Positions 22,180 to 47,129 of a stretch of DNA of 64,000 nt are shown here, one piece after another; the first letter of the stretch is position 1; every line of letters starts with the position of its first letter. Source of the stretch: Gonapodya sp. JEL0774 (lineage: Eukaryota); contig JADIIX010000039.1 of assembly GCA_027604505.1 (NCBI GenBank), positions 1 to 64,000 on the forward strand, given 5' to 3'. The notes beneath the pieces are model-generated. The model saw only the letters and a program-made list of their open reading frames with translations. It searched no databases and was not told the origin of the DNA. The translations under genes and the position numbers were made by a program.

Positions 22180-25100
22180 TCATTTTGCGCTTGCAGCTGC
22201 TTGCTCCCCGAAAAACTTGGTCAAATAGTTCCTGTTCAATTTGCCTGTTGGCCCTGAAGAACACCAAGAACATCCGTCAATGAAACACATCACAGACTAC
22301 ATTAAGTCGGCATTTTACTCGTTCTCACCTTTGGGGATCTCACTGACGAGCCAAATCTTTTTGGGGACTTTGAACTTCGCGAGTCTCTTGCCAGCTTCCT
22401 CCATGATGACTTTCTCCGTCAAAGTCTCCTGAGCTTCGGGCTTCACAATAATGCATATTTCCAGCTCTTGACCATACAAGCTCGAGGCAACTCCAAAAGT
22501 GCAAGCTTCGGCAATACCCGGTATTGTCAAGAACGCAGCATCAATCTGAAGTGGCAAAGGATGAGTGAACGCCGACGATTCGCTCAATACCCACCGACTC
22601 TCACCTCCAGGGGGCTGATCTTTTCACCACCTCGGTTAATTTGCTCTTTGATCCGACCCACTAGGAACACGAAACCATTTACATCCTGGACAACGGGAGG
22701 TCAAACTCTCGACGAATTCGTTCTTAGCGTGTGTTATGGAGATGCTCACCAAGTATCCAAGATCTCCTGTCCGGAAAAATGGCAGTGCGTTTGCATCATT
22801 CGGGTCGGAGAAGAATGAAGACGCGTTTGCTGTTGGGTTCTTCCAGTATCCTAGAGCCGTCACAAAGCAAAGGTATGCGCTCTTCGTTTCAGCACAAAGA
22901 TCCAAGAACCTTACTCACCGCTCATTACATTGACACCTCTCACGCATACTTCCCCAGTTTCACCGACCGCCTTATAGTTTCCCACATCATCCATAACCAC
23001 CGCATCCACGCCGCGACCCTTACCCACAGAGCCCGCAAAACGCATGCCAGGGGGGAGGAAGTTGGACGAGACCTGATGCGCAGCTTCTGTCATTGCGTAT
23101 GCCTGCATGTGAGATCAAGGAATGTTGCCTCAGATGACCTTTCTCGTGACAAAACAACACTCACTTCCAAGACTGGCGCTCGGAAAACAGTTTCAAGGTC
23201 TTTCAGCACTTGCGGCGCCCTGGTCACAGAATCACATAAGTCACCGATTTACAGTTAAACGCCATGGAACCCACAAGCTGGCACTGCAACTCCGAATGAA
23301 ACGTAGCCTCCCGCTTTGACCGGGGTATGTCTCCGACTTCCTGTTGAGAAGCATCTGGTGTATGGTGGGGACAGCAGAGTACCTTGTGAATATCAAAAAT
23401 TACAATGGACGAGATCAGTGAGAATCACCAGATCCGCGAAGACAGGAAAACTTCGCGAAGAGTTTACCAGCTGCAGTCAAATTCGGTGAAGTCTTTCCAA
23501 AAATCGGTGACACTAAACCTAGGAGGGATCACGGCGGTGCCGCCGGATGTAAGAGTAGAGAGGAGGGCACCGATGAGGCCGCTTGAAAGACAAAGGAAGA
23601 CGACGCTTGAATTCCCCTCAGGAGTTTCAACATTGATCATGTATCACATACTGCACGTGGAACAGAGGCTATTTAAATCCGCCGTGTCAGTTCCAGGTTC
23701 CAACCTCAAAATAAATTTTCACGCAGCAACTCTCACCATCACAACGAGAGTTGTGTCGTTTGGGGCAAGTTGATATGTGGCACGGATGTTATGGAGTGAG
23801 GTGAGAAGGTTACGGTGCGTCAAAGGGACACCTGTTTACCGGAGTAAGTGAGTATGAATGGGAACGGAAAAAGGGTGCTTAAAACAGGAGAGAGATAGAG
23901 ACTCCCACCTTTAGGGCGGCCCTTATGAGATTGATATGATAAAAATGAGTCAACCTTGATAATCTAGAAGCTGCCAAAGAAGATCTTATACTCACAGTAG
24001 TGCCTGATGTCTGAACGATTGCAGTCAATATTGGGGATCAAAGACACACCAATATCGATGATCCCCGCCAGCTCTGTGTACCCATGCCAATTTTGTACTG
24101 CCACTCACATGCAAGAACAACGCTGTCTCTCCTAACAAATCCTCAGCCTCCTGCCCTGTCTTCTTTACTCTCACCGCATCCGGACTCGAATGTCCAATGT
24201 TCGCACCTCCAATGTCCGAGTTGGCGATGGGAGTAGTGAAGGCAGCCCATTCGGTTGGAGCGGTCCCTGTTACAGCATCGGAGGAGTGAGGGGCGTACGC
24301 AATCTGGATGGTGGGAATGTAACCGCGAGCAGTGTCGAGAGTGCTGGAGTTGGTGGTAGTTTCGGTCACGTTGTTAGGATTTCTTGGGTCGTGGCGAGGT
24401 TTGATGCCAGATTTCAGTCAAGGAACTAACTCACTCCACCCACACTTCCCAAACGGGAATCCCAAGTTTCTTAGCAACATTACGACTAGCCTTGGCCTCT
24501 CCTCGCGGAACGATCACAACGCGAGCTTCAAGGTCATTAAAGAAGAAGTCCAGCTCCTCTTCGGTGTACTAGATGTAAGGAGGAATTCGAGCATCATTTA
24601 CGGGACACTTTGACAGGGTATCGACACGGAAGTCGTCTCACGTTTGGGTTCAAAGGGGCAGAGACGGCGCCTCTCCCTGTTACAGCAAAGAATACGGCCA
24701 GATACTGATGAATGTATGTGGCTCACCGATTAGCCTATTGAATGTGTCCGAACCTCGACGGAGAACAGTCTTGCAAAATTCTTACCTCGAGAGAGTTTGG
24801 GATAGGAAATGCGACCTTGTCGCCCTTCTTGAGTTTGTTGAATGGAGGGAGAGAGGTGAAGAGGGCGACCGAAAGCTTCAGCTCGCGATATCTGTGGACA
24901 TGGAACGGAACCGGTTTCGTTGCGACAAAATGAGAATTCGAACTCCAGCCAAGCAATGATGTTAAGAGGAGACGATTGATCGCTGACTTCGAATATTAGG
25001 TTTGTTCCACTTCAATGGACCAACCACCAGCACTGACTAAAACAGAATTGACATGGATTGGTGCCCCCCATCACAAATCTCCGTCGACACGCACGACACA

Positions 25101-25240
25101 CGATAAGGACTAGCCTTCCCCGACTTATCTCGGTTGGGAATGATGATGGCAGTGGAAGGGGAATCCGGAATGGCATCATTCACAGACAATGGAAGCTTCA
25201 AGGTGGTTTCAAAGTTGATGGGGGCACCGCTGGCCGTCAT
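22180..25240 (-). CDS. Acyl-CoA synthetase, oxalate-CoA ligase (Pcs60/AAE3)-like, many exons
   Basis: LFLH|TSGTT|GRPK|GVPLTHRN, PLFHVHGLIG, YSAVPTIHQML, FIRSCSA, QAYAMTEAAHQ, FRTGDLG, GRIKEQINRGGEKISP, PTGK. Confidence 0.9.
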
Positions 25241-25705
25241 TTTGGCAACCAATCCGATGAGAGTATGAGAAGTATGAGCGTGGTGGATGTAAAGCTGACA
25301 CCCTTGGAGTAAAAACAGACTTCTGTCGCCATTGATGGCCAAGACTCTTTTGTTTATAAAGGAACCAACCCTCGGCGAATTCTCAGCTCAGCACGACAGC
25401 AGCGCGGTTAGATACCGTCATTCAACAGCTTTCTGTGGATATATTTAGGCTAAGTGGTGGAAGCAAAACAAGGAATGAAGTGGCGAGGGGATAGTTTTGA
25501 TGTATATTAGAATCCGACGTCACTCCGCATCTAAAAGGTCCAGTTTTCTTCCCAAAGCAGCGCTTTGTTGTCAAGGGAGACGAATTTTTGATAGTGCGAC
25601 ACCGATATTATCACCTTGTCAATCATTCTCGTTATACTACATTGGTCAGCCGTGACAAGCCCCGACCAGCCCACAGCACGCTCGCTCCACAACTCCTGTG
25701 GTGAG

Positions 25706-27450
25706 ATGGGCAGCACAATGGCGCCGTCTAATGGTGACCAACTGCGGCACATGGGCATTACGTGTGCTCACTGCGAGGTGGCAGATTTCGCTGGGTCCCG
25801 GTGGAAATGGTGAGTGAAACGAGTTTCCTGATCGTCCCAATCTTCTTCCGTCTTGGACTGATTTCCGGAAGCACAATCCTTCTTGCTCAGTATCGAATGT
25901 CCCAACTATGATTTGGTAAGCCTCCGCCTCCCTTCGAAGGCCGTTTCGTCGGGATGCTGACCTGTCCTTCCACAATGTCAAAAGTGCTCCACTTGTGGGC
26001 GTGTCTCCCATCTCCACCATCCCATCCACCATAGCTTTTTGAAGCTGTCTCGTCCCGGACCGTTACCCATTCTTCACGACACCACACCACCACCAACTGG
26101 TGAAGGCCCGCGATCGGAAGACAGCGAGACACACTTTTCTGCCCTGCCAGATACTGTTCCTCTTATGCCTACCAAGCGAGAACTGCTGCAACTACTGCAG
26201 GAAGAGGAACGGCGCCGATTTTCACCCGCAGTTCAAGCCCTTTATTTTGAAGCCGAGTCCGACCCGGGGAAGGGAAAGGATTGGCTCACTGTTACTGATC
26301 AAATGCAACTGAAGCTCGTGAGAGATTTTGGTTTTGGAGATGGGGCGGTACAGCTGCTTAGGCGGGCAGCTCAAATGTATCCCAGTCGGTTTCGTCCGGT
26401 TCTGCATTTGTGCTCAGCTGAAACTTACATTACCCGTGTCCTTTGCTCTTCTAGATGACCCTGCTTTCCAAAACGCATCCGTGTATGTGCGAGAAAACCT
26501 TGCCCGGAAGGGGACGCTGAGCCGAGGAGACGAGGCGCCGGACGTGCCCCTTCTCACCATGGACCTCGTTGAAACGTCGACACGCGATTTATTTGCAGCA
26601 GCAAGTAGACCGGTTGTCGTTGTAGCAGGGAGTTATAGCTGACCCCCCTTTCGAGGTGTGGTGGAACTGCTCAAGGTGGGTCAGGTCGAGTTTATCTCCT
26701 TTTCTCGCCTTGTAACGTGATCCCTGTTGTGAACATGGGTTGTCAACCACCTTTTTCAGGACCTCTACAGCATCTACCGCACCTCGTGCGAGTTCGCGAC
26801 CATTTACATGTGAGCACCACATCGTTCTCTCCTTTTCTAAACCTTCCCACGCGGTTCTCGTTCTGTAACCCCCCCCCCCCCAAAACCTACCAATACCGCA
26901 AACGATGTGACCAGTGTGTATACACTAACGAATCCAATTGTAGAGATCTGTTGGCCAACGGCAACGTAGGCGAAAATCCTTGGATTTTTATTGGTAAAGN
27001 NNNNNNNNNCCCCCCGCCCTGACCCTGCCTCTGCCGCAACCGTGTGCTCCTATGTGTCTCCAGTCTCGAAGCCCATGCTTCAGATGTGTGGCCCAACGGA
27101 AACGTCGTCGAAATTCCTGTGAGTTCTGGTGGTACACTTCACCTTTGAGATATCTGTTGACAGGCTGTCCGACATGCTTGTCGGCTATTTTTCCCGTGAA
27201 GCGTCATCGCACTGCCATTGATAGACAAAAAGCTGCGTTGTCCTTCGTGCAGCAGTACAATTACACCATCCCTGTGTTTCTGGACACGCTTTCGGACAGT
27301 TTTGAACGTGCATACGCTCCTTGGCCGTTCCGATTTTACATTGTCAAGGACGGGAAAATGGCTTTCGTGGGCATGCCAAAAGAAGGCACTTATGACACTG
27401 GAGAGGTTGTAGAATGTCTTGCCACGATGGGCTGCTTCCCACAGTCATAA
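25706..27450 (+). CDS. ZZ-finger / iodothyronine-deiodinase-like putative selenoprotein (TGA = Sec at 26640-26642)
   Basis: Exons ~25706-25809, 25891-25915, (25985-25995), 26035-26384, 26455-26675, 26760-26809, 27064-27118, 27202-27450. Gives RPVVVVAGSYS*PPFR...TIYILEAHASDVW...LDTLSDSFERAYAPWPFRFYIV, matching deiodinase motifs FGSCTUPPF, YIEEAHxSDGW and AYxAxPERLY. Confidence 0.88.
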
Positions 27451-27482
27451 AAGTGTTCATGGAGTTAACTCCTTCCCTACTC

Positions 27483-27602
27483 GCCGCGTCCACGTATGAA
27501 GGTCACCACGCCGTTGCCAAATGCCTCTTTGTGAACGCAAGGAGTGGGCACGTTTCGACGGAGTCTGGCGGTGTGAGGATCTGAGTTGGGTTCAGCCGTG
27601 GC
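27483..27602 (+). promoter_or_regulatory. Candidate non-canonical SECIS element in 3' UTR
   Basis: ATGAA at 27496-27500, hand-pairable stem GGTC..CACGCCG / TGGCG-GTG..GATC, 3' TGAG at 27582-27585, AAA at 27519-27521, lower helix gccgcg or ccacg / cgtggc. Apical region longer than canonical. Confidence 0.35.
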
Positions 27603-27809
27603 TCTAGTGTTGAAGGGCACTCCGGATTGCAAAAACGTGGATGAAACTTTCTGCTTCTGGTTTTCAAAATATTCTGTGTAATGCGAAGATAATGACGCAA
27701 TTTATCGGAAGCTATTTCTGAGTGGTTGTGAATCCTCGGCCGTTCTCGGCATCCTTCACCCAGTCACTGTCAGAATCCTCTCCTCCATCGCCCTCCCCCG
27801 ATTCTCTCC

Positions 27810-29597
27810 ATGTCCAGTCAAACGGCCCCTGCGCTCCCACCACTCACGCTGCCCAACCCGTCGCCAATTCACGTGCTTCTTGGTGAGAATTGAAGCAGCT
27901 TGTTTTTTGCATAAAAAGAAGACGAGTGTGGACATCCGAGAAACCTGAGTCCGCGGCTGTGGTATCTTGGATGGGATCGCTTCGTTTTAACGATCATTTC
28001 TGGTTCATCGCCGCATTCTCTTCGCCCGCATCCAGTCGGAGCAGGTGCCATTGGAGTCGTGTATGTTTCCCGCCTGCATTCCCCTCAAAATAACATATTT
28101 TGTTCTGCGGTGTTGCGATCGGAATATGCTCCTGTGGTGAAGAGGGGCAACAAGTTTACGATCCTTACCAAGGAGTTTGAGGGGAAGGATTACGACTGGG
28201 AACCACACAGGATCTTCAACAGTGGTGAGTTTGATGGTGGTGGACGCTGATTTGCATTTTTTTTTTCCAATGCTTGTTAGAACGTGATGGCACTGCGCTC
28301 TTGAATTATTGAGAATGGAGGAAAGCCTGATCGTGCCGTGTGTTGATTAAGTGAACTCTCCGTTCCATCACTACCAGTGGATGCTGCAGGTAAAGCTGGT
28401 ATTGACTGGGACTATATCATAGTCGGAACAAAAGTAGGTGTGGCTATTAGTGTTTTCGATTACCTCTCAGGCTCAGCGAACGAACTTACTTGCCTGATGT
28501 ATGAACAAAAGGCGATCCCGGAATCTTTTTCCTGCGGGGAGCTCGTCAAACCCGCCGTCACTTCCCAAAAAACCGGTATAATTCTTATCCAAAATGGTGT
28601 CGGAATCGAGCGGGACAGTGCCCTGCTCTTTCCCAACAACCTCATCTGCTCAGCTGTCGCCTTCATGGCGGCAACACGAGAAGGCGAGGCTGGAGTGGTA
28701 AAGCACTATGGCGTAACAACTATGCCTATTGGAGTGTACCGCGGGGAGGATCTTGTGGCGCTTGGAAAGAGCTACACACCGCCTGCTGATGGGGACGAGC
28801 GAATCCTGTTGCTCAGCCGGTTATGGAAGGAAGTGGGAGGTATTAGTGCGCGATATGTTGAGGATCTGCAACCTGCCCGATGGTACAAGCTGCTGTGGTA
28901 AGTTTAATTTGAGTTCCTCCCTTGTGTTGTGTCCTCGCGGTAATTTGTGGCACTCAACCCATCGTAGGAACGCTTCGTTTGGTCCCATATCCGTTCTTAC
29001 CAACGTGCCCAGTCACCCAGCGATAGCTGCAGACGCGGGGTTGCTGCAGTTTGCGAGAGAAAACGTGACAGACATTTGGCATGTCGCGGAGAAGGTGGGT
29101 TTGCATGGCGGAAGCCGCAAATTGTGTGGACAGTGCTTCACGCTGGTTGCCATCATCGCTACAGTTATTTCCAGGCCGCTTTCCCCCAAAAATAAGATTA
29201 GGTCCATCTTTGGAGGAGTGGCCGGGCAAGGGTGTCTCACGGGTCGGAGTGAGTTAGATTGTTGGCTGCTCCACCACCAAATAGAACGCGTGGCCTAATA
29301 CTCATAAATTTCAAAGGATCACAAAGCGTCGATGCTTGTTGACGTGGAGGAGTGTCGTGATGCAGAGATCGAAGTTATTTTGGGTGAACCTGTTCGAATA
29401 GCCAAACGAGCAGGCCTTGCACTACCTCGACGTGAGCTTATCGTTTTTGCGATACGTCGCACTAGGACTACGATGCGCGCTAACCGATCGCTCACGTTCT
29501 TACTTTCATAGTGGAGACGCTGTACTATCTTGTCAAAGCAAATGCGCAGCAGCGGAAGAGGGATTCACAGAGCGAAAAGGTTGCCGGCTTACACTAA
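27810..29597 (+). CDS. 2-dehydropantoate 2-reductase (ketopantoate reductase, PanE/ApbA family)
   Basis: VGAGAIG, DYIIVGTK, LIQNGVGIE, RWYKLLWNASF, KASMLVD...EIEVILGEPVR. Confidence 0.88.
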
Positions 29598-29678
29598 GTC
29601 TCCATTTTCAATTCTATTTCTAAGGACGCAGATTAGAATTCTGAACCAAATATTGCTTTATCAAGTTTATATCACGCG

Positions 29679-29814
29679 TGTCATCTCGCAGAGAAGGGGA
29701 GAGTTCCGACAACAAAAATTCGAGCAGGACGGGTCTGCCAGGCCGAGCCAGACCAGCGTGCGCAGTCCCCCACCAACTCCGCATTATGCCGGTCCGCAAA
29801 ACAAAAAACCTTTT
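29679..29814 (-). ncRNA. Candidate Sm-class snRNA, U11-like
   Basis: ~136 nt intergenic; starts AAAAGG, three hand-folded hairpins, Sm site AATTTTTG (29720-29713), 3' hairpin. Confidence 0.35.
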
Positions 29815-30051
29815 GACTGAAACCTACACCACGTGTTTTAGCTTTCTGACCCCAAATGCGCATTTGGGTTGGTCCAACACTCAACTCCACCCTTTATCAG
29901 TATTATTATATAAGACAGACATACTATGAAAGTCTTGCGCATATACGCAGTCTCTATGTATGTACGTAGTCCCCCTTTTACCTCACTTGCGATCGTTTTC
30001 GAGTGCTCGAACTAAGCATCAGTACTACGAACAACTTTGCACTACGGAACC

Positions 30052-30719
30052 TTAAGAGTTCAAAGAGCCACTGGTTTCTTCTTGGAGACATTTTTGTGAA
30101 CTATAATCTATTGCGCACAAAGGGTTGTAGGGTTTTAGCGNNNNNNNNNNTCGGTTCCGTCCGCCTCTCACCCCCTCCGCCCCCGGGACCCCTCCGCCGG
30201 GGGGGGGGGGCGCCCGGGGGGGGGGGGGCGGGGCTGACGGTCGTGTCATGTGATCGGTTCGTTGGCGTTCATGGTGGCTGAGCGGACAGATGGTGGTTTG
30301 TGGAGGTGGAGTGAATTTGAAGGACAGAAAGGGGCGAGGTGCCGTCGATGATTACGTGAGATTGGTACTCACTGCCTGCGGGTACACAGTGTGCATCATC
30401 GAATCTCCCACCCAACCTTCTCCAGCAGTTTGTCTGTACAAACTTTCTTAGTTTAGTTAGTCAAGCCCCTTCAGATCTGCAATGACAAAAGTTTTCTACG
30501 ATTTGGGGGTCATTATTGAACCATTGGCCATCGGTGTTCTCTATCAGTCTCTATCCTGTAGTAGTTGAGCCTGAGCTTCGCAAATAAGCGAAGATAGTCG
30601 ACACTGCATCTCTGGAAGCAGAGAAAATGACGCTAAAACCGTACAACCCTTTGTGCGCAATAGATTATAGTTCACAAAAATGTCTCCAAGAAGAAACCAG
30701 TGGCTCTCTGAACTCTCAA
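30052..30719. repeat. ~85-bp inverted repeat arms flanking an assembly gap
   Basis: 30056-30140 is the reverse complement of 30631-30715 with ~2 mismatches; Ns at 30141-30150. Confidence 0.85.
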
Positions 30720-30993: not shown

Positions 30994-32790
30994 ATGGGAT
31001 CCGTCGAACCCAATCGTTTATTGAAACCACCAGAAATCACCACGGCGCTTGCAGAAATCTATTCAAATGCAGGCGTTCCATCACTCTTTCGCAAACATCC
31101 CCGCGTCAGTGTAGAGTCTCTCGAAAAGCTTCGCTATCTCTCCGATGAACCCCTGGACCGGTATTTGAAGAGCTCTCTCCTCGACCTGCGGAAAGACGAT
31201 GCAATTGCCAGATTGCAGCTCGATTCAGATGCAGGTGACGCAGCCGCTCGGGAACTTTGGATGGCTCTAAATGACGTACCTCCTTGGGTTGACTGGGACA
31301 GGGTGAAACGCGGGCAGGTGGGAGTATTTGGAACAGCAAGATGTGGAAGTCCGATATGAAACTTCGGTGCAGCGCGTGTTCTGGTTCTTTGCTGGGCCTA
31401 TGCTCCTACTCCTTCTTCACTTCTCACTCATCTTTGGTGCGTATGAGTATTCGAGTGGAATTGATGTAAAAACTCATGTGTACTGGCGACTACACATATG
31501 CAGGAGTTTCTGCTCCCAAGATCAATAAAGTGCTCAAGGCAACGGGTTATCTATCGAAGCCAACAAAAGTGAGAGTTTGAAGAAAGAGATATGCTTTCCT
31601 TTGACTACTGGTTATCTGAGTATCGGTGTTGATTACACGCTTTCCCACGGACAAAGGTGACGTTCCAACGCTTGCTAGAGACTGCTTCCTGGGTTCTCTC
31701 GTGCATGGATGAAGACGGTTAGTGCCGTGTTATGAGGGTGTCTATTTCATGAAACGCACCTGAGTATCGGCTGTCACTTAGCTCTCCGCCCTGGTCACAG
31801 TGGATGGATATCAAGCATTCGCGTTCGATTCTTGCATGGGGGTGTGCGAGCACGTCTCCAGGCTCTGGGCAAGGCGAACCCTCGTTTCTACAACGAAGTG
31901 GAAGGAGGGGTTCCCATCAATATGGTGAGCTCAATCAATTCCGTGTCGATGTACCGTCGAGCCTTCGGGCTCATTCCATCACAATGCGCACCGACTTGCA
32001 AAGGAAGATATGTCGGCAACAATCCTTGCATTCTCTGTGGGGCCTTTGCAGCGACTATCAGTATTGGGATTCTGGGTGTCCGAGAATGAGATGGAGGATT
32101 ATTGCCATCTGTGGCGATACATTGGGTACTTATCGGGTATTCCCGATGATGTAAACCCCCTTGCAAATGGATATGATTATGCAACAAGTTTCGGAGCAAG
32201 CATTGTTTTGCAGTGAGTAGTGAGTGGATAAGGGTGAAAGAAACCGAATATTGTTGACTAACCGATTTTCGTTTGAAGCGTTTGCTTGCCCGATGAGAGC
32301 ACTGTACAACTCGCAAACGCTCTCCTCCGAGGAACTGCGATTGGAAGTGCAGAACTTCAATTGGAGGAAAACGCGGGAACTGCACTCAAGGAACCGGAAA
32401 CGTCATCGTCCGACGCGTACGCCAACCTAATTTACTACTATCTCACACAATTGACTCGTATCGTTCTCGGCAATCAGTATTGCGACTTCCTAGAATTGCC
32501 GAAATCTTGTGAACTACCTTGGAAACAAAGAGTGTACGCGTATGCTACTATTGCGTTCTATCTGGGAACGACATACATCATGCGAATTTCGTCGGGTTTG
32601 ATGGAATGTGAGTTCTGCGTACTGCAACATCAAGTCTCACAATAGGTAGACACACTCTTTTCCCGGGGAAACAGGGCGAATTGCACGTAACAAAAGCATT
32701 ATTCCCAAACTCATTGATCGAGTGTTGTCTGGCAAGCCTCTGAATTTCCGACTGCAATATGAACCAAAAGATGAATCTCGTTCAACTTGA
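30994..32790 (+). CDS. ER-bound oxygenase MpaB / rubber oxygenase Lcp-like (DUF2236) heme protein
   Basis: PPWVDWDRVKRGQ, LKATGYL, RLLET, IRVRFLHGGVR, GVPIN, EDYCHLWRYIGYLSGIPD. Confidence 0.88.
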
Positions 32791-33457
32791 ATCAAAATAA
32801 TCTGGGGAGTTATCTATTGCTTGCAAAACATGAAACAAATAACAATGTAATTTCGAAAATGAGAAACATTTTCCAAATAATGGTGGGGAAGGCGGCGGAC
32901 TGGAACCCTGACCCACGGAGAACATTCCCAGACAAGCTCCCATGAGTAAAGAAGAAGAGGATTAACGAGAAACCTCTGAATTGAACGTTGAGTTTAGAAT
33001 CTTGCTGCCCTGCAAGCAGTGATCGCACACTGAGCAAATACTTTCTGCCAACCAGCCAATGAGTTGGCGCTCACAACGGAAAATGAAACTCCTTCACACC
33101 ACTAGTGATGCACTCCCGAAAATGGGAAAGATACGATGTACGCCGAGTTAATATTCAGAGGCTCGAGAGCTTAAGAGTATTGCAGTTGCATCAAGATATG
33201 AACGAGAAGTGGAGTGTGGAAACAGAGAACAGCGGAGTTGCCTCATTCGATTAACTCTTTTGTATGCTCTTAAGGAGAATCGTAGGGTAAGAATGAGACA
33301 GAAGGAAATGGTTGCAAGTAGCAAGAAAAGTTTGGTATTTCTGTAAAACCAAGATAATGTTTCATCATTCGCAAGATTTGCTAACCGTTGTGTGCTCTCT
33401 CCTCTAACGACCTAATGTGCTTCCCCGCAACTACTCAATCTATTTCATGTATGTACC

Positions 33458-34523: not shown

Positions 34524-35297
34524 ATGTCACGTATCGTCGCTGCTACTGCTCTGACACTTCTTTCCATCGCCTTTGTTGACGCTGCCGTCTGGAATGTGAG
34601 TACGAGGGTGGCATCGCTCTCCTCGTCTCTCCTCTCGGTTTAGCTCGGCAGGTCTGTACGCTCTTAGATCACCGTGGGGATCAACAATACTCTTGCATTC
34701 TCTCCTTCAAATTTGACTATCGCAGTGAACGATACGGTGGTGAGTAATCATGTGCTTGGCTGCCGTGCAATCGATCTAAATCAGGTACTAACACATGTGG
34801 GATCGAAACAGGATTTCATATGGGCCGCTTCAGGGTGAGTTCCGCATCCCAAAAGATGTAGGGTATCCAGTGCTAACAGTGCTTTCTCTCAAGACACACT
34901 GTTCAACAAGTGAATTCCAGCACGTCGTGTGCTCCCCTGAATGCAACTCACGGAAATACAACTGCGATACTCCTAAACTCCGAGCCAATGAACATTGATT
35001 CGGAGTACATTGTGTCTTTCCCATCGCAGGGAGTGTATCACTAGTGGGTGTGAAGGAGTTTTCGGTTCTGTAGCCAGCACCAACTCATCACCGGACTGGC
35101 AAAAAGTATTTGCTCGATAGACGGTCACTGCTTGCAGGGCAGTAAGTTTCCAAAACCAACGTTTAGTTCAGATGTCTTTCGTTTCTCATTTCCGTTCCAA
35201 AGTGCGAGGTGTAATCGTTGTCGGTAACGGAACAGCTCTTGCCCCTCTCCGTGTTTTAGACCAACGTAGACTGAGAAGGCTCATGAAAGCTGCCTGA
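34524..35297 (+). CDS. Secreted cupredoxin (type-1 blue copper protein)
   Basis: Signal peptide, FSPSNLTIAVNDT, HTVQQ, spliced GVYHYICSIDGHCLQGMRGVIVV (His/Cys/His/Met). Confidence 0.8.
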
Positions 35298-36216
35298 AAG
35301 CATTTCTGTTCTTCGCGGCTCAGGGTTCCGCTCTGTCATCTTCCTCCGGCTTTCCGACTCTTCATTGGAAGAATTTTCGTCATTTTCGAAACTACATTGT
35401 TGTTCGTTTGAAGCTTTGCATGCAATAGAGAACTTCCCAGATTCTTTTGATTTAACTTGAACGAGATTCATCCCTGTGTTCATATTGCCCGTTGGAACTT
35501 CACAGGCTTGCTGTTCGAAAAGTGGCGGCGAGTGTCAGCCAATAATTGGAATTCCAATTGCAATTCCACAAGCGGATTGATCGCGCTTCAAGCCCTCTTT
35601 TTCACATCATACATTTTTTCGATACCGACTTCGGTGGGTTCGTTACTGAAATTGGGAGACAGGTTTTTAGCCCGGCAGACCGCCAGTGAGTGTTTTCGTC
35701 AAGTACGGATGTACGAGAAACATCAATCGAATGCTTGGTGAACAAGTAGCTAGATAATCGGAGGCAAACCTGCATTGAATGAGAATTTCATTTGCAAGCT
35801 CTGTGATCGGATGGGGCCGGGGTTAGTTTGGGCTGTGAGGCACTGGTTGTTCCCACCTAACGAGTGGACCTGCAACACCAAATCCAGAAACATGAGCATC
35901 CAGGGTCAACCTCTTCCGGCACGAAATAAGGCGGTGAAAGTTCCGATCACACTTGTGGGTTCTTTTCGACGGAATGCTGCAACTCAGTCGCCTGTTGGCG
36001 CTCACCGCCGCCATGCGCGTTCAATCCATGTTCGACCATCACCGGACCGTTCCCATCGGACATCGACCTGGCTTGAATTTCATGCCTACGCGACCTCGTG
36101 TTTCTTGAACACTCTTACCGTCGTTCCTGTGCTCCCTTTCCGCCCGTCCTCGTTCCGAACAGGTCTACAATGGAACGAAAATTGACACTACAATCGACAC
36201 TTCACTGCCAGTGTCA

Positions 36217-39200
36217 ATGGTAGTCCGCGGCCTCGTTGCAACAATCGAGCTCACACCGGCCAACGCCGCGTCCGTTTCCTCCGCGGGTTCCACCTCCCCT
36301 TCGACATCACCCCTCGAAATGAGACCCGCAAATGAAATGTGCCTCAGGATGCTGGAAACTGACGAACTCGTTACTGACGAGGTGTGTTTTGTGAGCTTGG
36401 GAGAGGAAACTTTCTGCTGGCTTTTGTCTCTTGGAATCGATACCAGAGAGATGTTCCATCCGAACTCGGATCAGAATGTTTCTCTGGAAGGCCGTACAGG
36501 CGTGAAGCAGACGTTGTGCTGGAGGGGTGTACCCCCCCAATGTGGCCGGCCAGAGCCTCTTGGACTTTCATTCGGAGGAACCTCTGCACAAAAACTGGGA
36601 TTCGTCCACCTACTTCGTAGCCCACCAATACCGGTGTCCCACGAATAGGTTGGCGGATAGGTGGTTGGGGACCAGAAATGGTCACGGTCCGCTCTTATGG
36701 ATTCCTAGAAGGTTGTGTTTGGTGAAAGCGAGGAACGTCGCAGAATTGCAATTTTACGACAATTCCCTCTTCTTCCCCAAATATTTTGCAACCCCAGTCT
36801 CTACGCCGCCGTATCAAAGACCAAGATCACCTCAAACTCTGTCCTCACCCTACCATTGAAGCATCCGACCTTGCAGATCGTTTGCGTGCATTGACCACAA
36901 CCCCCCAAGGAGCCGCTGGAGCGGATGCGAAAAGGGTACTATTTGTGTTACAAAGATACTTGAAGGTGAGTTTTGCTGTGCTTCGCGTAGTCTATTGGAA
37001 GTGCATCCTCGTTATATGTTGCGAGCATTGCAACATAGGCAATTTGTTGCCGCGGGGATCAACCACATCATACGTTATTCATCTCAATGTGACCAGTCTT
37101 TCATTCCAAACCTATGTTTTTAATCATCCAGGAGCCTGACTTCTCGGCGTCCTTCGTCCTTCGTGGCGGTGCCCAGGCATTACAGCGTTGCGTCTCAGCA
37201 GCGGATGGGAACACACTGGCTTACGCTTTACAAGCTATGCACTATCTGGTTGAGCAAAAAGGGTGGGAGGGGCTTGATGTGGATGTAGTGGGAGGCGTGA
37301 GTGCGCTGGTGCTGGGAACACAACCCCCTCTCCCGCATAGCTTAATAGAACCGTCTGTTGCCCCCGCCCCCGATATGACAACAATACCACTCGTTGACTC
37401 CCGGGCATCCTCACTGCAGCTTGTCACAATCCTAGTTCGTGAAGAGCTGACAAATATCTGCCGTCCTGCAACTGCCATCCTAGCGAAGCTCGTCTCCTCC
37501 CCACCCACAGCTCCTGCTCAAACTCCTTCCGAGCCCTCCCCTACCCCTCAACCACAAAACTCCACTGACCTCACTGGCTTCGATAGTGTCAGTTCCGCCA
37601 TGTCCACACAGTCCGCGTTTCTCCCTACCCTCGTTCGCAGGCTCTCTGCACCAGACCCAACTATGCAGCTCGCCTCGCTCCACCTACTTAATGTTCTCAT
37701 CCGGCATGCTTCGCACTCGGCAAGAGATGATTTCACCCGCCAGCTCGAAGCTCTTCATTGCTCATCCCACGTGGCTCGCATGGCCCTGGTCGGCGGATCC
37801 GAGGAAGCCAAGACACATCTTGCGGAGTACCAGACCTTGGCGGTCAGAGAACTCCACAGGAAAAAGAGGAGGGCGATAGTTTTGGATGGGAAGGCATCAG
37901 CGCACGGAAAGTTTATGCAAGAGGTGTGGTCAGCAGCGGTCGACGTTGTAGGTGGCCAGGCGGAAGGGCGAAAGTGGAGAAAAGTCGGGTTTTCGGTAAG
38001 TTCACCTCCTAAAATTGGAAAACTGATATAGTCAAGCGCGCTCTGTTGTGACGGCTCAAAACGTGTTTTGAACCAGTCCGAAAATCCTCGTCGTGAACTA
38101 GCACGCGTCGGCGAGCTGGGGTTAGAAAATCTTCACAACTTTGTGCGCACTTGTGGGTCCCTTCCATACGTCGGACCACCAGGAGTGGTCGCACCGACCT
38201 ACCTCCAGGGACCCTCGGGGCCCGCGGCATTCGCACGTCTTCTGGCCGAGCAACAGCAGAAACCAGTCGAAAGGAGGTGCCCGGTGGCAAAGGGGAGCAT
38301 GGAAGTTACAGAGATGCTGAGCGACTACTGGGAGATTGGGACTGGCTGTTAGTAAACCCAAGTTCCCTCTAAATTTTACACTAAAGTCCATATTTGCCTC
38401 CATGAATCAGACTCCACTTCAACGACTCTCCAGCCTCTGCTTCTCGCCTTCGATCAAGCGCATGCCGCAACCCTGGAACTCTGGATTCGAACCTGGCGTG
38501 ACTTGGATGCTGTGCACACCTCTGAGGATGTGCAAAAAGTCTCAGCTATGGTTCGATCTCAGTTCAAGTACTCTGTTGCCGGTGTTGCCAACGCTGGAGT
38601 ACCGCTTCAGCATCAAGGGCAATCGAATCAACTGCAGCAACAACCAATATCTTCCAGCGGGGGGTCGGGAAGTGGTCCTGGTGCGGCTGCGGCGGCTCAA
38701 CAGGCGGCAGCGACCGCCGTGACAGCAATGGTCGAGCGGTTCAGGAAGGACATGCTGGAGGTGCCATTTGTGGTCATCAGGCAGAGGATGCAAAAGGAGA
38801 TTGAGATGGAAGATGATCTGATGTCGAAAGCCGCGATAAAGTAAGACACGGGAAGCACGGCGTGGCCCGAGTTCTGATGGTGGTATCGGCTGTTTTAACA
38901 TCTGTGATCATTGTTCCAAAGGAACCTTCGTGATGCTCTCTTCAAAGAGTCATACCAGTTTGTGAAACAGCAGCGCCTCTCGTGCCTTCAGGCTGGTGCT
39001 TGGTTTCCTGTCGTGACAACCAAGGGAAGGGTCAAGAATACACACAGATTTTACAGACTAACAAGCAACAGGAAAACTCTGCACTGGGCAGAGTTTCAAG
39101 GTGATGGTGTTACAGCAAGGAAACCGGACATGACGGAATTGGGAGAGAAGAGTACGTACTCGAATTTCAATGTGGATCATATTGGGCTCAACGTTTGACT

Positions 39201-42832: not shown

Positions 42833-44824
42833 TCAAAGCCTCTCACTGGAGAGCGCACGTTGAACGAGCTGTAAGGAATGTAAGGTTTGACTTAGCACTC
42901 CCTCTTATTGCACAAATATGCTTCTCACCTTGTTTGTAACGAATTTTCTGATATCACCGATGAGATCAGCTGGTCGTTCGAGGGCAGCAAAGTGCCTGGG
43001 CAAAGGCTCTATGTAACACCCAATATTTGTCTCGCAGCACACGAATGGACTTACCCTCCACGCTCAAACACGGACCATTGTACAAGCTTAGGGCACCAAT
43101 ACTCGGCCCATCCTCTGGGAGGAACAAATATTTCATGGGGAAACGCGGCGCATCCCACAGGAATGTCAAATTTGACAGAGCTGAGAAGCTGAGCATCCAG
43201 CTGACGATGCATTGAGTAATGGTACAGGCGAAAAGACGAAGTTATAGTGTTCGTGATGTAGTAGATCATCACTACACCAAATTCCGTTAATTAATGTGAC
43301 ATTCCTCGACTGTGTGATCAATCTGCTCACCATTCGTCAAAAAATGATCAATCGAGATACTAGACGGAAAATCTCCATCGCCATCTCTCAAATCCGTCCA
43401 TTCATGCTGCGGGGAGAAATTGGTGGAGTCCATTAGAGCCAGCGCAACGTTCATAGTTCTCTCGAACGTCAATGAACCCACAAATTTCTCTCCTATCCAC
43501 GCCATAAGCCCAACAGGACTGTCGCTAACTGAGAATCCCAGTGTCTGTGGCTTGGTTGCTTGGATTCGCTGGTAGCCCGTCCCAGCGTTGCTGAAGTTGT
43601 TCACGTACTTATCAATGCGTTCCTGTTCGGCTGCTGTAGGAGGCACAACATTGGCATCTTTCGGAGGTCGAGGGAACGTCGGCATATTGAGCTGGGAAGA
43701 GAAAGCAAGGGGGAGAAGGAAGGTTAGGTGGTGAGGAGAGAGACAAATGAGGCTTAAAAGAGCAGGCACCCCACATGAATCGCCTTGCAAGAGTTTGGAA
43801 AAAGCAACCCCAATGCCTGGAATCATTGCAAGGTTAAATGGTGGAGCGAACGGTGGGGACGAAGAGTAAACAGATAGACACCTTCGTAACACTCGAGCCC
43901 CAATCGCCACCTTGCGCGACTACGGTATGGATAAATTTGAAAAGAAGCAGGTGATTTTCGCCATTCGGAAGGAAGGGTACATTCGAGACGAACGTTTTAC
44001 CATCTGTGAGGCTAAACAAACGCCAAATGACATACTGTACTACACCACGCACCATACGAATTATACCCGAGGTTCTTCATTACTTCATTGAAAACCTTGG
44101 ACACCTCGACGACTCCAAAGTCTCGGACTGTCGCTGCGGAGGAGAAACCGTATCCCACAAGTGACGGCACCACGACATGGAAAGCAGGGGCGGTAGGGGA
44201 AGGTGGATGGGTGAGCGGACGGATGATGTCGAGGAACTTTCGAAGAATTAGAGTTCGTGGTCAGTTCCAAGGGGCACTCCGCTCATACCTCTGACAGAGC
44301 GAAACGGGGGATGAAAAGAAAAAAAGTCAGCAACCGTACCGCGTGGTCCAATGATAGAAAGGATGGTACGTGCCAACGAAAGATCCCGGCCATCCGTGCG
44401 TCATCAGAATCGGAACTGCATCGGCCCGAGGAGATCGCTCGTGAATGAAATGCACGGAGACGCTCCCGTTTCCCCTCGGGTCCCCTTTCGCTGCTCCTAC
44501 GGGTACCGCGACGTCTAACTTGAAGTGATTGAACTCGTTGATCCGGCGCTCCCATATCGCCCAATCGTATTTATTTAACCAATGTTCAACCAATCTCTTG
44601 GCGACACGATTCGGCATCCTTGAAAAGACAGAAATCTGATCAGTAAGGAGAATTCGAGGCACTGCGCCGGGATTTGAAGTTATTCACCCATACTCCCAAG
44701 TGTCCCCTCCTCCGATGGGATTCGCGAGAGAGTTTTCCGGGAATCTGGCATTCCGAAGGCGTTCTTTAAGCGTAGCTAGAAGGTACGGTGGACAGCTCAC
44801 GCGGAACGGTGTCGGAGTCACCAT
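42833..44824 (-). CDS. Epoxide hydrolase (EHN + alpha/beta hydrolase), copy 1
   Basis: [41 protein letters not shown]...[19 protein letters not shown] acid/His region. Confidence 0.9.
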
Positions 44825-44976
44825 GTTTTCGGTATGTAAGAGTGCTGTGGATTCAGTCGGCTTTCTCTCTTCCGACTTCCAATCCTGAGCAGACAGCAAT
44901 CGAGACGGCTCTCTCTGAATTTTTATCGCGCAACCGGATTCACAGACAGGAGTTCAGAAAACTAATATACATTTTG

Positions 44977-46892
44977 TTAATCAATGTTCAGAAATCCGGT
45001 TCCTACTACACATGCGGGGATTCCCTCCTTCTCTGTAATCAAAGTTTTGAGGATGATAAAGCGGACTGCACTTCCTACAACGAACACTGTATCTGAATTT
45101 CGACGTTTCAAAACTTCTTCGCGATGAAGGCCCACCTTCACTGTTGCAAACTTCCGAATGTCTTCCACAAGGTGAGATGACTGTTCCATAGCGGCGAAAT
45201 GACTGGGAGTGCACAGTCCAACCGTTAAGGTGAGAACTGAGCCGCTTGAATACACAGCTCACCCTCCAGTTTTGAATTCGGTCCAGTGAATCAAATTGGG
45301 ACACCAATAGTTGACCCAGCTTTTAGGTGCAACGAAGATCTCATAAGGAAATGCTGCCACGCCCACTGGTTGGAATATGCGGGATGTATTCATCAAGCCA
45401 TCGTCGATGCCCAAGAAGAACTGATAGCGATAAAGCCGAACGGAAGATGTGATACAATTACTCCGGAAAGGGAAGAAGGAAAGTCAGACAGACATGCGGA
45501 CCCGGGAGCAATGACTAAAACAGAAGACCTACCTTATGTAATAAATCATGATGTTTGTCAACAAGTGGTCGAGTGATATAGATGGCGAAAAGTCTCCGTC
45601 ACCCCCTCGAAGATCAACTATCTCGTGCTATGCAGTGTATCGGTAACCACCTCCAGTTAAGTCCGCCCAATACTCCATGGCTATTAAGGAGCATCCTACT
45701 TACGAATTTTTCACCAATCCAAGCCATCAAACCTATGGGGCTGTCGCTGAGTGCAAATCCAAGAGTCTGCGGTTTGGTTTCCTGTATCCGCTGATATCCA
45801 GTACCTGAGCGTTCAAAGCCAGCTTTATAGTTGACGATTCGCGCGTGTTCTGCAGGAGTAGGAGGCTCCACATTTGCATCTTTCGGTGGTCGGGAGAAAA
45901 TAGGAAAGTTGAGCTTTGCGCGCAACGCAAAATGATTCAGTGACCTAACAGAAGTAGCAAAACTACCAAAATGCACACACGTGAATCGCTTTACAGCTTT
46001 CCGGGTGTACCACAGCGAGTGCCTTGGTGATAAAAGCTCCCCAGTCCCCACCTTGCGCAACTAGACGGAGACACTAATAAGAGTCAGGAAATCATCAAGA
46101 CAGCTTAATGAGAAACCCCACTATAGCGATGGTATCCCAGAGTCTTCATAACGACATTCAACACATTTGCGTTCTCGACCACCCCGAAATCTCGTACAGT
46201 TGCTGCGGAGGAGAAACCGTATCCCACAAGTGACGGCACCACGACATGGAAAGCAGGGGCGGTAGGGGAAGGTGGATGGGTGAGCGGATGGATGATGTCG
46301 AGGAACTTTCGAGGAATTAGAGTTCGTGGTCAGTTCCAAGGGGCACTCCGCTCATACCTCTGACAGAGCGAAACGGGGGATGAAAAGAAAAAAAGTCAGT
46401 AACCGTACCGCTTGGTCCAATGATAGAAAGGATGGTACGTGCCAACGAAAGATCCCGGCCATCCGTGCGTCATCAGAATCGGAACTGCATCGGCCCGAGG
46501 AGATCGCTCGTGAATGAAATGCACGGAGACGCTCCCGTTTCCCCTCGGGTCCCCTTTCGCTGCTCCTACGGGTACCGGGACGTCTAACTTGAAGTGATTG
46601 AACTCGTTGATCCGGCGCTCCCATATCGCCCAATCATATTTATTTAACCAATGGTCAACCAATCTCTTGGCGACACGATTCGGCATCCTTGAAAAGACAG
46701 AAATCTGATCAGTAAGGAGAATTCGAGGACCTGCGCCGGGATTTGAAGTTATTCACCCATACTCCCAAGTGTCCCCTCCTCCGATGGGATTCGCGAGAGA
46801 GTTTTCCGGGAATCTGGCATTCCGAAGGCGTTCTTTAAGCGTAGCTAGAAGGTACGGTGGACAGCTTACGCGGAACGGGGTCGGGGTCATCA
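44977..46892 (-). CDS. Epoxide hydrolase, copy 2 (3' end approximate)
   Basis: Same motifs: [47 protein letters not shown]. Confidence 0.88.
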
Positions 46893-47129
46893 TATTTCTT
46901 GGAGTGCTGTGGATGAAGCAGGATGAATTGGTCGGATCCCACCGGCCGATGCCATCGATTTTTATAATAAGATAAGTCATTAAAGGTGCTATCATAGCTT
47001 AGAGGCATCTAGAGCCCTGAACATCTCATTCACTTTCTTGGAGAGCTGCCAGTCCACCGCAAATCTTAAACAGAAAGACCGTGAGGAATGGGAACAACTC
47101 CCGACACAAGGGCTGCAATCATTTAGTAC

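What the first reader, a model, noticed from the sequence alone, without database searches (positions are those of the whole stretch)
26455..27450. In-frame TGA at the deiodinase catalytic position: probable fungal selenoprotein
Seen: AGT TAT AGC TGA CCC CCC TTT CGA (TGA at 26640-26642). The ORF track ends the gene here, yet the frame continues PPFRGVVELLK to a GT donor. Downstream exons splice in phase to give IYILEAHASDVW and AYAPWPFRFY. Established: deiodinases carry SxxU-PPF and EAHxSDGW; Dikarya lack Sec, but some early-diverging fungi retain it, and deiodinase-like selenoproteins have been reported there. Inference: the TGA is decoded as Sec, and standard annotation would truncate or mis-splice this gene. 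The substrate in a fungus is unknown (haloaromatic dehalogenation or a redox role).
Basis: partly seen in the sequence, partly recalled or inferred. Interest (0 to 1): 0.92.

Follow-up and report, generated by a model that had tools for sequence, protein, structure and literature searches.

The report
Fungal zinc-finger deiodinase-like selenoprotein
This gene of the water fungus Gonapodya has a stop codon exactly where related enzymes carry their catalytic cysteine or selenocysteine, so it likely makes a selenium enzyme; selenoproteins were already reported in this genus, but the zinc finger, the cysteine-type relatives in mycorrhizal fungi and a predicted RNA hairpin just behind the stop codon were not found in the papers I could read.

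Summary
Observation confirmed. TGA 26640-26642 is in frame at the deiodinase catalytic column. The window matches Gonapodya sp. JEL0774, whose public annotation splices the TGA out and fuses the gene to its neighbour. The G. prolifera ortholog is cut at the same codon. Of 162 homologs, 53 end right before this column and 67 have Cys. Sec machinery and a DI-like selenoprotein are published for G. prolifera, so the core is known; machinery in this species could not be tested.

Three things go beyond the papers I could read:
(1) Glomeromycota carry Cys orthologs (100/98 support, shared intron), against the preprint's statement that fungi show no Sec-to-Cys conversions.
(2) No canonical SECIS was found, but a predicted 18-bp hairpin starts 9 nt after the UGA (0 of 5000 synonymous recodings as stable).
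(3) The subfamily is soluble and fused to ZZ or ubiquitin domains.

Sec decoding is about 90% likely; the substrate is untested.

The parts
25706..25809 (+). Exon 1: start codon (25706, or 25718) and first half of the ZZ zinc finger
   Evidence: aligns to G. prolifera P0003, whose ZZ scores 37.3 bits on PF00569. The exon alone gave no Pfam hit. Missing from the public annotation.
25891..25915 (+). Exon 2: 25-nt micro-exon, middle of the ZZ finger
   Evidence: GT-AG introns on both sides; in phase with P0003.
25985..26384 (+). Exon 3: end of ZZ, Pro-rich linker, and a four-helix domain (26165-26384) with no Pfam family
   Evidence: AF2 mean pLDDT 93.3; no Foldseek match at E<=0.001.
26385..26454 (+). 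Intron 3 (phase 1), at the same position as the intron in Glomeromycota-type loci
   Evidence: Found in 9 of 10 metagenome loci, L002-L010; L001 has no intron there.
26455..26675 (+). Exon 4: start of the deiodinase fold, with the catalytic motif
   Evidence: PF00837 E=1.5e-4, 21.6 bits, below the cut-off on its own.
26640..26642 (+). In-frame TGA, inferred selenocysteine 239
   Evidence: aligned to Dio3 Sec170 through P0044.
26652..26786 (+). Predicted mRNA hairpin: 26652-26665 pairs with 26773-26786 (14 bp) and 26668-26671 with 26769-26772 (4 bp). It starts 9 nt after the UGA and spans intron 4.
26760..26809 (+). Exon 5
   Evidence: present letter for letter in P0002.
26870..27009 (.). Likely assembly artefact: noisy duplicate of 27010-27137 plus a 10-N gap inside intron 5
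27064..27118 (+). Exon 6: Glu269, His271 and Trp276 of the deiodinase loop
27202..27450 (+). Exon 7: His287, Arg293, rest of the fold, TAA stop
   Evidence: PF00837 E=1.5e-6, 28.2 bits, above the cut-off of 27.
27496..27586 (+). Weak, non-canonical SECIS-like candidate in the 3' region; not supported
   Evidence: z=+0.20 for 27480-27600; not found by Rfam or by my pattern scan.

Best explanation
The gene likely encodes a soluble 367-residue selenoenzyme (ZZ zinc finger, four-helix domain, deiodinase fold) in which the UGA would be read as selenocysteine 239, likely helped by a predicted hairpin 9 nt downstream, and which would strip halogen from halo-aromatic substrates as deiodinases do. SHOWN: the exon structure, the TGA in the catalytic column, the same cut point in G. 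prolifera, Cys in Glomeromycota orthologs, and the conserved active-site network. INFERRED: (a) Sec insertion by the eukaryotic machinery published for G. prolifera, about 0.9; (b) the coding-region hairpin slows the ribosome at the UGA as an SRE-type element and makes up for a weak or non-standard SECIS, about 0.55; (c) the selenolate attacks a C-halogen bond of a halophenol or halotyrosine, with the Ser/Glu/His network supplying the proton and an outside thiol re-reducing it, as no resolving Cys sits at the Dio positions, about 0.45; (d) the ZZ domain, and ubiquitin in relatives, tie the enzyme to protein partners or proteolysis, about 0.3.
For: TGA in frame. Of 162 stored homologs, which are redundant and not independent: 53 end exactly before the column (52 without the partial P0123), 67 have Cys and 5 have Trp; 6 others are mostly misaligned, 18 start after it and 13 were unclassed. 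G. prolifera P0003 is 75% identical over the N-half and ends at the same residue. The read-through model scores 315.7 bits against 230.5 for the public annotation on a profile without Gonapodya rows; its columns came from a seed that included the model. The C-half keeps up to 48% identity to Glomeromycota-type homologs (N-half up to 55%), so it is not decaying. The AF2 model of the Rhizophagus ortholog P0044 has Dio3 (4tr4) as best match, Z 22.0, rmsd 2.6, 168 aligned; the next hit is Z 17.0. Dio3 Ser167, Thr169, Tyr197, Glu200, His202, Trp207, His219 and Arg225 map to S236, S238, Y266, E269, H271, W276, H287 and R293. G. prolifera has eukaryotic Sec machinery and a DI-like selenoprotein (10.1101/314781). 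Hairpin: -29.0 kcal/mol, z -4.93, 0 of 5000 synonymous recodings as stable; the three best of 115 gene windows all cover it; 0 of 133 other coding windows fall below z -3; no such structure in 6 of 6 Glomeromycota-type loci examined (z -0.98 to +0.51); 1 of 484 genomic windows as strong.
Against: Sec machinery was not tested in this genome (no genome held). No canonical SECIS was found; the preprint found one for only 5 of 16 fungal candidates. No DNA of a TGA-bearing relative was obtained, so 'ends before the column' is inferred to mean TGA, and conservation of the hairpin is untested. The hairpin arms also pair in the pre-mRNA across intron 4 (probability 0.87-1.0), so a splicing role fits too. 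The Cys control loci are AT-rich (GC 0.31-0.37). Residues of the Dio3 thyroxine pocket (Arg176, Asp211, Tyr257, Glu259, Arg275) and both resolving cysteines (Cys168, Cys239) are not kept. The ZZ lacks the Asp that p62 uses to bind N-termini. The fold model is of the ortholog, not of the spliced window protein.
Confidence: 0.75

Rival explanations
1. Same selenoprotein, different chemistry: a peroxiredoxin- or thioredoxin-type reductase of peroxides or oxidised protein thiols, used in protein quality control; the deiodinase label reflects fold ancestry only.
For: The thyroxine-pocket residues are not kept. The next structural neighbours are thiol-disulfide oxidoreductases and 1-Cys peroxiredoxins at Z 14-17. 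Relatives are fused to ubiquitin, ZZ or SAM domains. The family occurs in amoebae, a ciliate, a foraminiferan, Vitrella and rotifers.
Against: The deiodinase-specific loop and its anchor (Tyr, Glu, His, Trp, His, Arg) are all kept, and Dio2/Dio3 stand clearly above other folds (E 2e-12 and 1e-11 against 6.5e-7; Z 22 against 17).
Confidence: 0.35
2. The hairpin has nothing to do with recoding. It bridges intron 4 to aid splicing, or is incidental, and an undetected SECIS does the work.
For: The arms pair across the intron in the pre-mRNA. One other window in 484 is as stable. Glomeromycota-type loci lack this intron as well as the hairpin, so the control cannot separate the two roles.
Against: It is the strongest structure in the gene and starts 9 nt after the UGA, where a recoding element would sit (SRE in SELENON, PMC6844570). 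None of the other five exon junctions shows a comparable structure.
Confidence: 0.35
3. The UGA is read through by a near-cognate tRNA (Cys or Trp), stimulated by the hairpin, without selenium.
For: No SECIS found. The SELENON SRE also promotes readthrough of other stop codons. Five homolog records show Trp at the column, although these may be translation-table or splice artefacts.
Against: The congener has the whole Sec machinery. The column is a known Sec site. Trp there could not be catalytic (established knowledge).
Confidence: 0.06
4. The TGA is a true stop (a ZZ-helical protein of 238 aa, or a pseudogene), or it is spliced out as in the public annotation.
For: KAJ3340653.1 skips it and KXS20255.1 ends at it. 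No separately annotated G. prolifera C-half turned up (a word-based search over 45-144 aa).
Against: The annotation's donor (26619) lacks the +5 G that all six donors of my model have, and it deletes 19 codons including the catalytic motif. The C-half is intact and conserved. The same cut point recurs in about 50 homologs.
Confidence: 0.04

Closest known systems
DI-like selenoprotein of Gonapodya prolifera (Mariotti et al., bioRxiv 10.1101/314781; whole main text read, figures and supplements not seen)
   Same: Same genus, same family, TGA at the Sec position; most of their fungal candidates also lacked a SECIS. KXS20255.1 is the ortholog of this gene and probably the gene they reported (not verifiable without their Fig. 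2 and supplement).
   Different: A second species. The preprint text mentions no ZZ or helical domain, no hairpin, and states that no Sec-to-Cys conversions were seen in fungi. The 2019 Nature Microbiology version was not available; from memory it mentions other RNA structures in fungal selenoprotein genes and may cover some of this.
Vertebrate iodothyronine deiodinases DIO1-3 (PF00837; PDB 4TR3/4TR4, 9H48)
   Same: Fold, S-x-S/T-U-P-P-F motif, deiodinase loop and the Tyr/Glu/His/Trp/His/Arg network.
   Different: No membrane anchor (highest 19-residue hydropathy 1.12); ZZ and helical domains instead; neither resolving Cys; thyroxine pocket changed; no canonical SECIS found.
Glomeromycota 'iodothyronine deiodinase-domain' proteins (e.g. 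Rhizophagus P0006/P0044, Dentiscutata P0053)
   Same: Sister clade at 100/98 support; helical domain plus deiodinase fold, often with ZZ; shared phase-1 intron.
   Different: Cys (TGT in the loci seen) instead of TGA; one or more N-terminal ubiquitin-like domains, the last ending in Gly-Gly; many paralogs and pseudogenes; no downstream hairpin.
Sec redefinition element (SRE) of SELENON (PMC6844570, passages)
   Same: Coding-region stem-loop close behind a Sec UGA.
   Different: Unrelated gene; the arms lie in two exons; function here is untested; SELENON also has a canonical SECIS.

Membership tests
DI-like selenoproteins (PF00837 homologs) | Homology to the deiodinase catalytic domain | tested here: met
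   PF00837: exon 7 at 28.2 bits (cut-off 27), P0002 at 57.1 bits; ortholog model matches 4tr4 at Z 22.
DI-like selenoproteins (PF00837 homologs) | In-frame TGA at the column where homologs have Sec or Cys | tested here: met
Eukaryotic selenoproteins | Sec machinery (tRNA-Sec, SPS, PSTK, SecS, eEFSec, SBP2) in the same genome | not testable with these tools
   No genome held; no tRNA in the window; published for G. prolifera only.
Eukaryotic selenoproteins | Canonical SECIS in the 3' UTR | tested here: inconclusive
   None by Rfam over 24000-30000 or by a home-made pattern over 27451-28200, which was not validated on known SECIS elements. The preprint found none for 11 of 16 fungal candidates. 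SECISearch3 was not available.
Eukaryotic selenoproteins | Selenium in the protein; TGA kept in the mRNA | not testable with these tools
   No RNA holder listed.
Iodothyronine deiodinases DIO1-3 proper | Active-site network Ser167/Thr169/Tyr197/Glu200/His202/Trp207/His219/Arg225 | tested here: met
   All kept, Thr as Ser; mapped through P0044.
Iodothyronine deiodinases DIO1-3 proper | N-terminal membrane anchor | tested here: not met
   Hydropathy maximum 1.12; ZZ and helical domains instead; DIOs are membrane-anchored.
Iodothyronine deiodinases DIO1-3 proper | Distal Cys conserved in all three isoenzymes (Cys239 of Dio3) | tested here: not met
   Aligns to Ile308; the proximal Cys168 aligns to Tyr237.
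Iodothyronine deiodinases DIO1-3 proper | Deiodination of T4, T3 or rT3 | not testable with these tools
   Needs an assay; pocket residues differ.
ZZ-type zinc finger (PF00569) | Six Cys and two His zinc ligands in ZZ spacing | tested here: met
   C20, C23, C35, C38, C44, C47 and His residues at 54-58; ortholog P0003 at 37.3 bits.
p62-type N-recognin ZZ | Asp129, Asp147, Asp149 acidic pocket | tested here: not met
   Ala (window) or Ser (P0003) after the first Cys, and only the last Asp kept. Read from the HERC2, MIB1 and KCMF1 alignments, with the position rule from PMC6098011.
SRE-type recoding element | Stable stem-loop a few nt 3' of the Sec UGA | tested here: met
   9-nt spacer, 18 predicted pairs, z -4.9.
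SRE-type recoding element | Conserved with covariation, and needed for efficient recoding | not testable with these tools
   No DNA of a TGA-bearing ortholog was obtained.

The most novel reading that the evidence does not exclude
This gene is the fungal branch of an unrecognised, eukaryote-wide subfamily of soluble deiodinase-fold selenoenzymes with their own four-helix domain and repeated fusions to ZZ and ubiquitin domains. In Gonapodya its UGA is recoded mainly through a coding-region hairpin rather than a canonical SECIS, which offers a testable answer to how SECIS-less fungal selenoproteins are made. Arbuscular mycorrhizal fungi kept and multiplied it by a TGA-to-TGT change, a Sec-to-Cys conversion of the kind reported as absent from fungi.
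Probability: 0.25. Interest if true: 0.8.

Novelty: new variant of a known kind. Interest (0 to 1): 0.5.

Why it matters
A fungal DI-like selenoprotein is not news in itself. What would matter is threefold.

(1) How fungal selenoproteins without a SECIS are decoded was left open in the preprint. A single strong hairpin beside the UGA gives a direct reporter experiment, and may help attempts to make selenoproteins in yeast.

(2) Cys orthologs across Glomeromycota would overturn the statement that fungi lose selenoprotein genes without converting them. They also supply ordinary, easily expressed enzymes for finding the substrate.

(3) A soluble, possibly full-length-expressible deiodinase-fold enzyme is a handle on what this fold did before thyroid hormones.

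Both public Gonapodya gene models are wrong at this locus.

Tried and rejected
No genome is held for this window, so the Sec machinery could not be searched. No RNA holder was listed, which is no evidence either way.

SECIS searches: Rfam gave only a chance snoRNA match at E 7.2. The SECIS-like candidate at 27496-27586 has z +0.2, a long apical part and misplaced adenines, and was rejected. A stable structure at 27847-27986 (z -2.7 and -3.4) lies in the first exon and intron of the downstream ketopantoate-reductase gene (ATG 27810), so it is unlikely to belong to this mRNA. A second structure just upstream of the UGA (26556-26635, z -3.05 against dinucleotide shuffles) was not among the 12 strongest windows under the synonymous null.

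Stretch 26870-26999 first looked like an alternative exon; it copies intron and exon alike and was rejected as an artefact.

Homolog searches: exon 7 found no protein of 45-144 aa. A viral-contig scan with P0005 found nothing.

Helical domain: no Pfam family; ESM Atlas best scores 0.79 and 0.76, leads only; no PDB match by sequence or by Foldseek. The wide VIA-align search of this domain could not be run, so a new fold is not claimed.

Trees: with two long C-half fragments included, support for the group holding Gonapodya and Glomeromycota was 91/92 and the group included those fragments. The quick N-half tree gave 94 with one long row inside. The 100/98 figure comes from 30 hand-picked rows without those fragments. 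No AU test was run.

Earlier scan findings: none. No complex prediction was run.

Full report
OBSERVATION. The TGA is at 26640-26642, in frame, followed by Pro-Pro-Phe-Arg and a GT donor at 26676. The downstream exons splice in phase to a TAA at 27448-27450. Comparison with the G. prolifera ortholog extends the gene upstream to seven exons: 25706-25809, 25891-25915, 25985-26384, 26455-26675, 26760-26809, 27064-27118 and 27202-27450. That gives 367 residues, with the TGA at codon 239 as the only internal stop (a second in-frame ATG at 25718 is possible). All six donors have G at +5. Intron 5 is inflated by a noisy duplicate beside an N gap.

ORGANISM AND ANNOTATION. The best homolog, KAJ3340653.1 of Gonapodya sp. 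JEL0774, is letter-for-letter identical to the model over long stretches, so the window is from that species. That record lacks the ZZ exons, removes 57 nt including the TGA through a weak donor at 26619, and runs on into the downstream ketopantoate reductase. G. prolifera KXS20255.1 has the ZZ finger and helical domain and ends exactly before the Sec column.

THE COLUMN. An HMMER search of 1.84 billion representatives with exon 4 gave 36 hits. A profile search gave 182 hits, 120 of them listed. Among the 162 proteins then stored (redundant), 53 end right before the column, 67 have Cys, 5 Trp, 6 other letters (mostly misaligned), 18 start after it and 13 were unclassed. One of the 53 (P0123) is a partial record. 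That the truncated ones end at a TGA is inferred; I saw no DNA for them. Named members come from amoebae (Arcella, Clastostelium), a ciliate, Reticulomyxa, Vitrella and bdelloid rotifers. The read-through model fits a 17-sequence non-Gonapodya profile far better than the annotation does, 315.7 against 230.5 bits.

CYS ORTHOLOGS IN GLOMEROMYCOTA. Named hits from Rhizophagus, Dentiscutata, Racocetra, Gigaspora, Cetraspora, Funneliformis, Ambispora, Diversispora and Paraglomus have Cys. Rhizophagus P0006 is ubiquitin-like repeats + ZZ + helical domain + PF00837. In a careful tree of 30 rows with the Sec column removed, the two Gonapodya genes and six Glomeromycota proteins form a clade at 100/98. 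Of the 22 other rows, 17 end at the column, 4 show Trp and 1 shows Cys, so Sec is the likelier ancestral state (inference). Two other row sets gave weaker support. Nine of 10 metagenome loci share intron 3 in position and phase. Of the 7 loci that reach the motif, 6 have TGT and one broken copy has TAT. Their ZZ intron sits three codons from Gonapodya's first intron, and the DI domain has no introns in these loci, so one of six intron positions is shared. The preprint 10.1101/314781 (whole main text read; figures and supplements not seen) found eukaryotic Sec machinery in five of 1197 genomes, none of them Glomeromycota, and states that no Sec-to-Cys conversions and no orthologs in Sec-less fungi were seen. 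That Rhizophagus was among the 1197 is my inference, since Table T1 is closed. The 2019 journal version (nine species according to passages in PMC11378755 and PMC10778597) was not available and may have revised this. Searches for deiodinase + Rhizophagus (3 listings, all on biofortification), DI-like, Sec-to-Cys in early-branching fungi and ZZ or ubiquitin fusions showed no paper on these points at listing level. Gonapodya + selenoprotein or selenocysteine gave 4 papers, with none on JEL0774 in what I read.

RECODING SIGNAL. No canonical SECIS was found. A scan of the spliced mRNA found one outstanding structure (z -5.1 against dinucleotide shuffles): 14 contiguous pairs plus 4 more, starting 9 nt after the UGA, with its arms in exons 4 and 5. 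Keeping the protein fixed and redrawing synonymous codons, 0 of 5000 versions were as stable (z -4.93). The three best of 115 gene windows all cover it, the next is -2.68, and 0 of 133 windows from other ORFs fall below -3. One of 484 genomic windows was as strong, and six Glomeromycota-type loci show nothing. The position resembles the SRE of SELENON, which raises UGA recoding (PMC6844570, passages). Against this reading: the arms also pair in the pre-mRNA around intron 4, the controls are AT-rich and lack that intron, and conservation in a TGA-bearing relative is untested. From memory, not from a call, the 2019 paper reports non-SECIS RNA structures in fungal selenoprotein genes.

PROTEIN. 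An AF2 model of the Rhizophagus ortholog (pLDDT 80) matches Dio2 and Dio3 best. Through that ortholog, the network described for Dio3 (PMC7506546 and PMC9141512, passages) is kept: S236, S238, U239, Y266, E269, H271, W276, H287 and R293. Not kept are both resolving cysteines, the thyroxine-pocket residues Arg176, Asp211, Tyr257, Glu259 and Arg275, and the membrane anchor. The helical domain has three invariant residues among 26 sequences, folds confidently as four helices (pLDDT 93) and has no Pfam or Foldseek match. The ZZ finger resembles those of HERC2, MIB1 and KCMF1 but lacks the key Asp of the p62 N-degron pocket (PMC6098011, passages). Eighteen stored homologs matched a ubiquitin-type Gly-Gly end followed by Met, as in linear ubiquitin fusions that would be cleaved (inference). 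Others carry a ubiquitin-like or SAM domain.

MECHANISM AND VERDICT. Most likely the UGA is decoded as Sec (about 0.9) with help from the hairpin (about 0.55), giving a cytosolic enzyme whose selenolate reduces a carbon-halogen bond of a small halo-aromatic (about 0.45; thiol or peroxide redox about 0.35) and is recycled by an outside thiol. It is a DI-like selenoprotein, works like a deiodinase by inference, and is not a member of DIO1-3 proper. The core claim is known for the genus. The architecture, the Cys sister clade and the hairpin make it a new variant with testable consequences. Interest 0.5.

Noticed in passing
window 26870-27009: A noisy copy of the sequence that follows the 10-N gap, starting after a poly-C run; a likely read-phasing or assembly artefact that mimics an alternative exon.
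   Followed up: yes
window 27810-29600 (+): Ketopantoate reductase (ApbA/PanE) gene, wrongly fused to the deiodinase-like gene in KAJ3340653.1.
   Followed up: partly
window 44105-44828 and 46174-46897: Tandem duplicate of an epoxide hydrolase gene segment, 97% identical over 724 nt.
   Followed up: no
window 30055-30140 and 30631-30716; 32732-33191 and 34956-35511: Inverted repeat pairs (98% over 86 nt beside the second N gap; 78-84% over 148-230 nt), possibly ends of small transposons.
   Followed up: no
L003, L006, L009, L010: Several Glomeromycota-type copies have stops, frameshifts or insertions, and named genomes hold many paralogs, suggesting rapid birth and death of this ubiquitin-fused family in arbuscular mycorrhizal fungi.
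   Followed up: partly
P0062, P0128, P0130 and the Glomeromycota fusions: A short M-x-x-x-S-G-R-x-G-F motif begins several non-fungal homologs and directly follows the ubiquitin Gly-Gly in Glomeromycota, so cleavage would expose the same N-terminus; both Gonapodya proteins lack it.
   Followed up: no
P0004, P0005, P0012, P0062, P0098: Five records show Trp at the Sec column; they may be TGA read under a TGA=Trp table or real TGG codons. No DNA was seen.
   Followed up: no
window 36433-36498: The only other 66-nt genomic window with folding z below -4.
   Followed up: no
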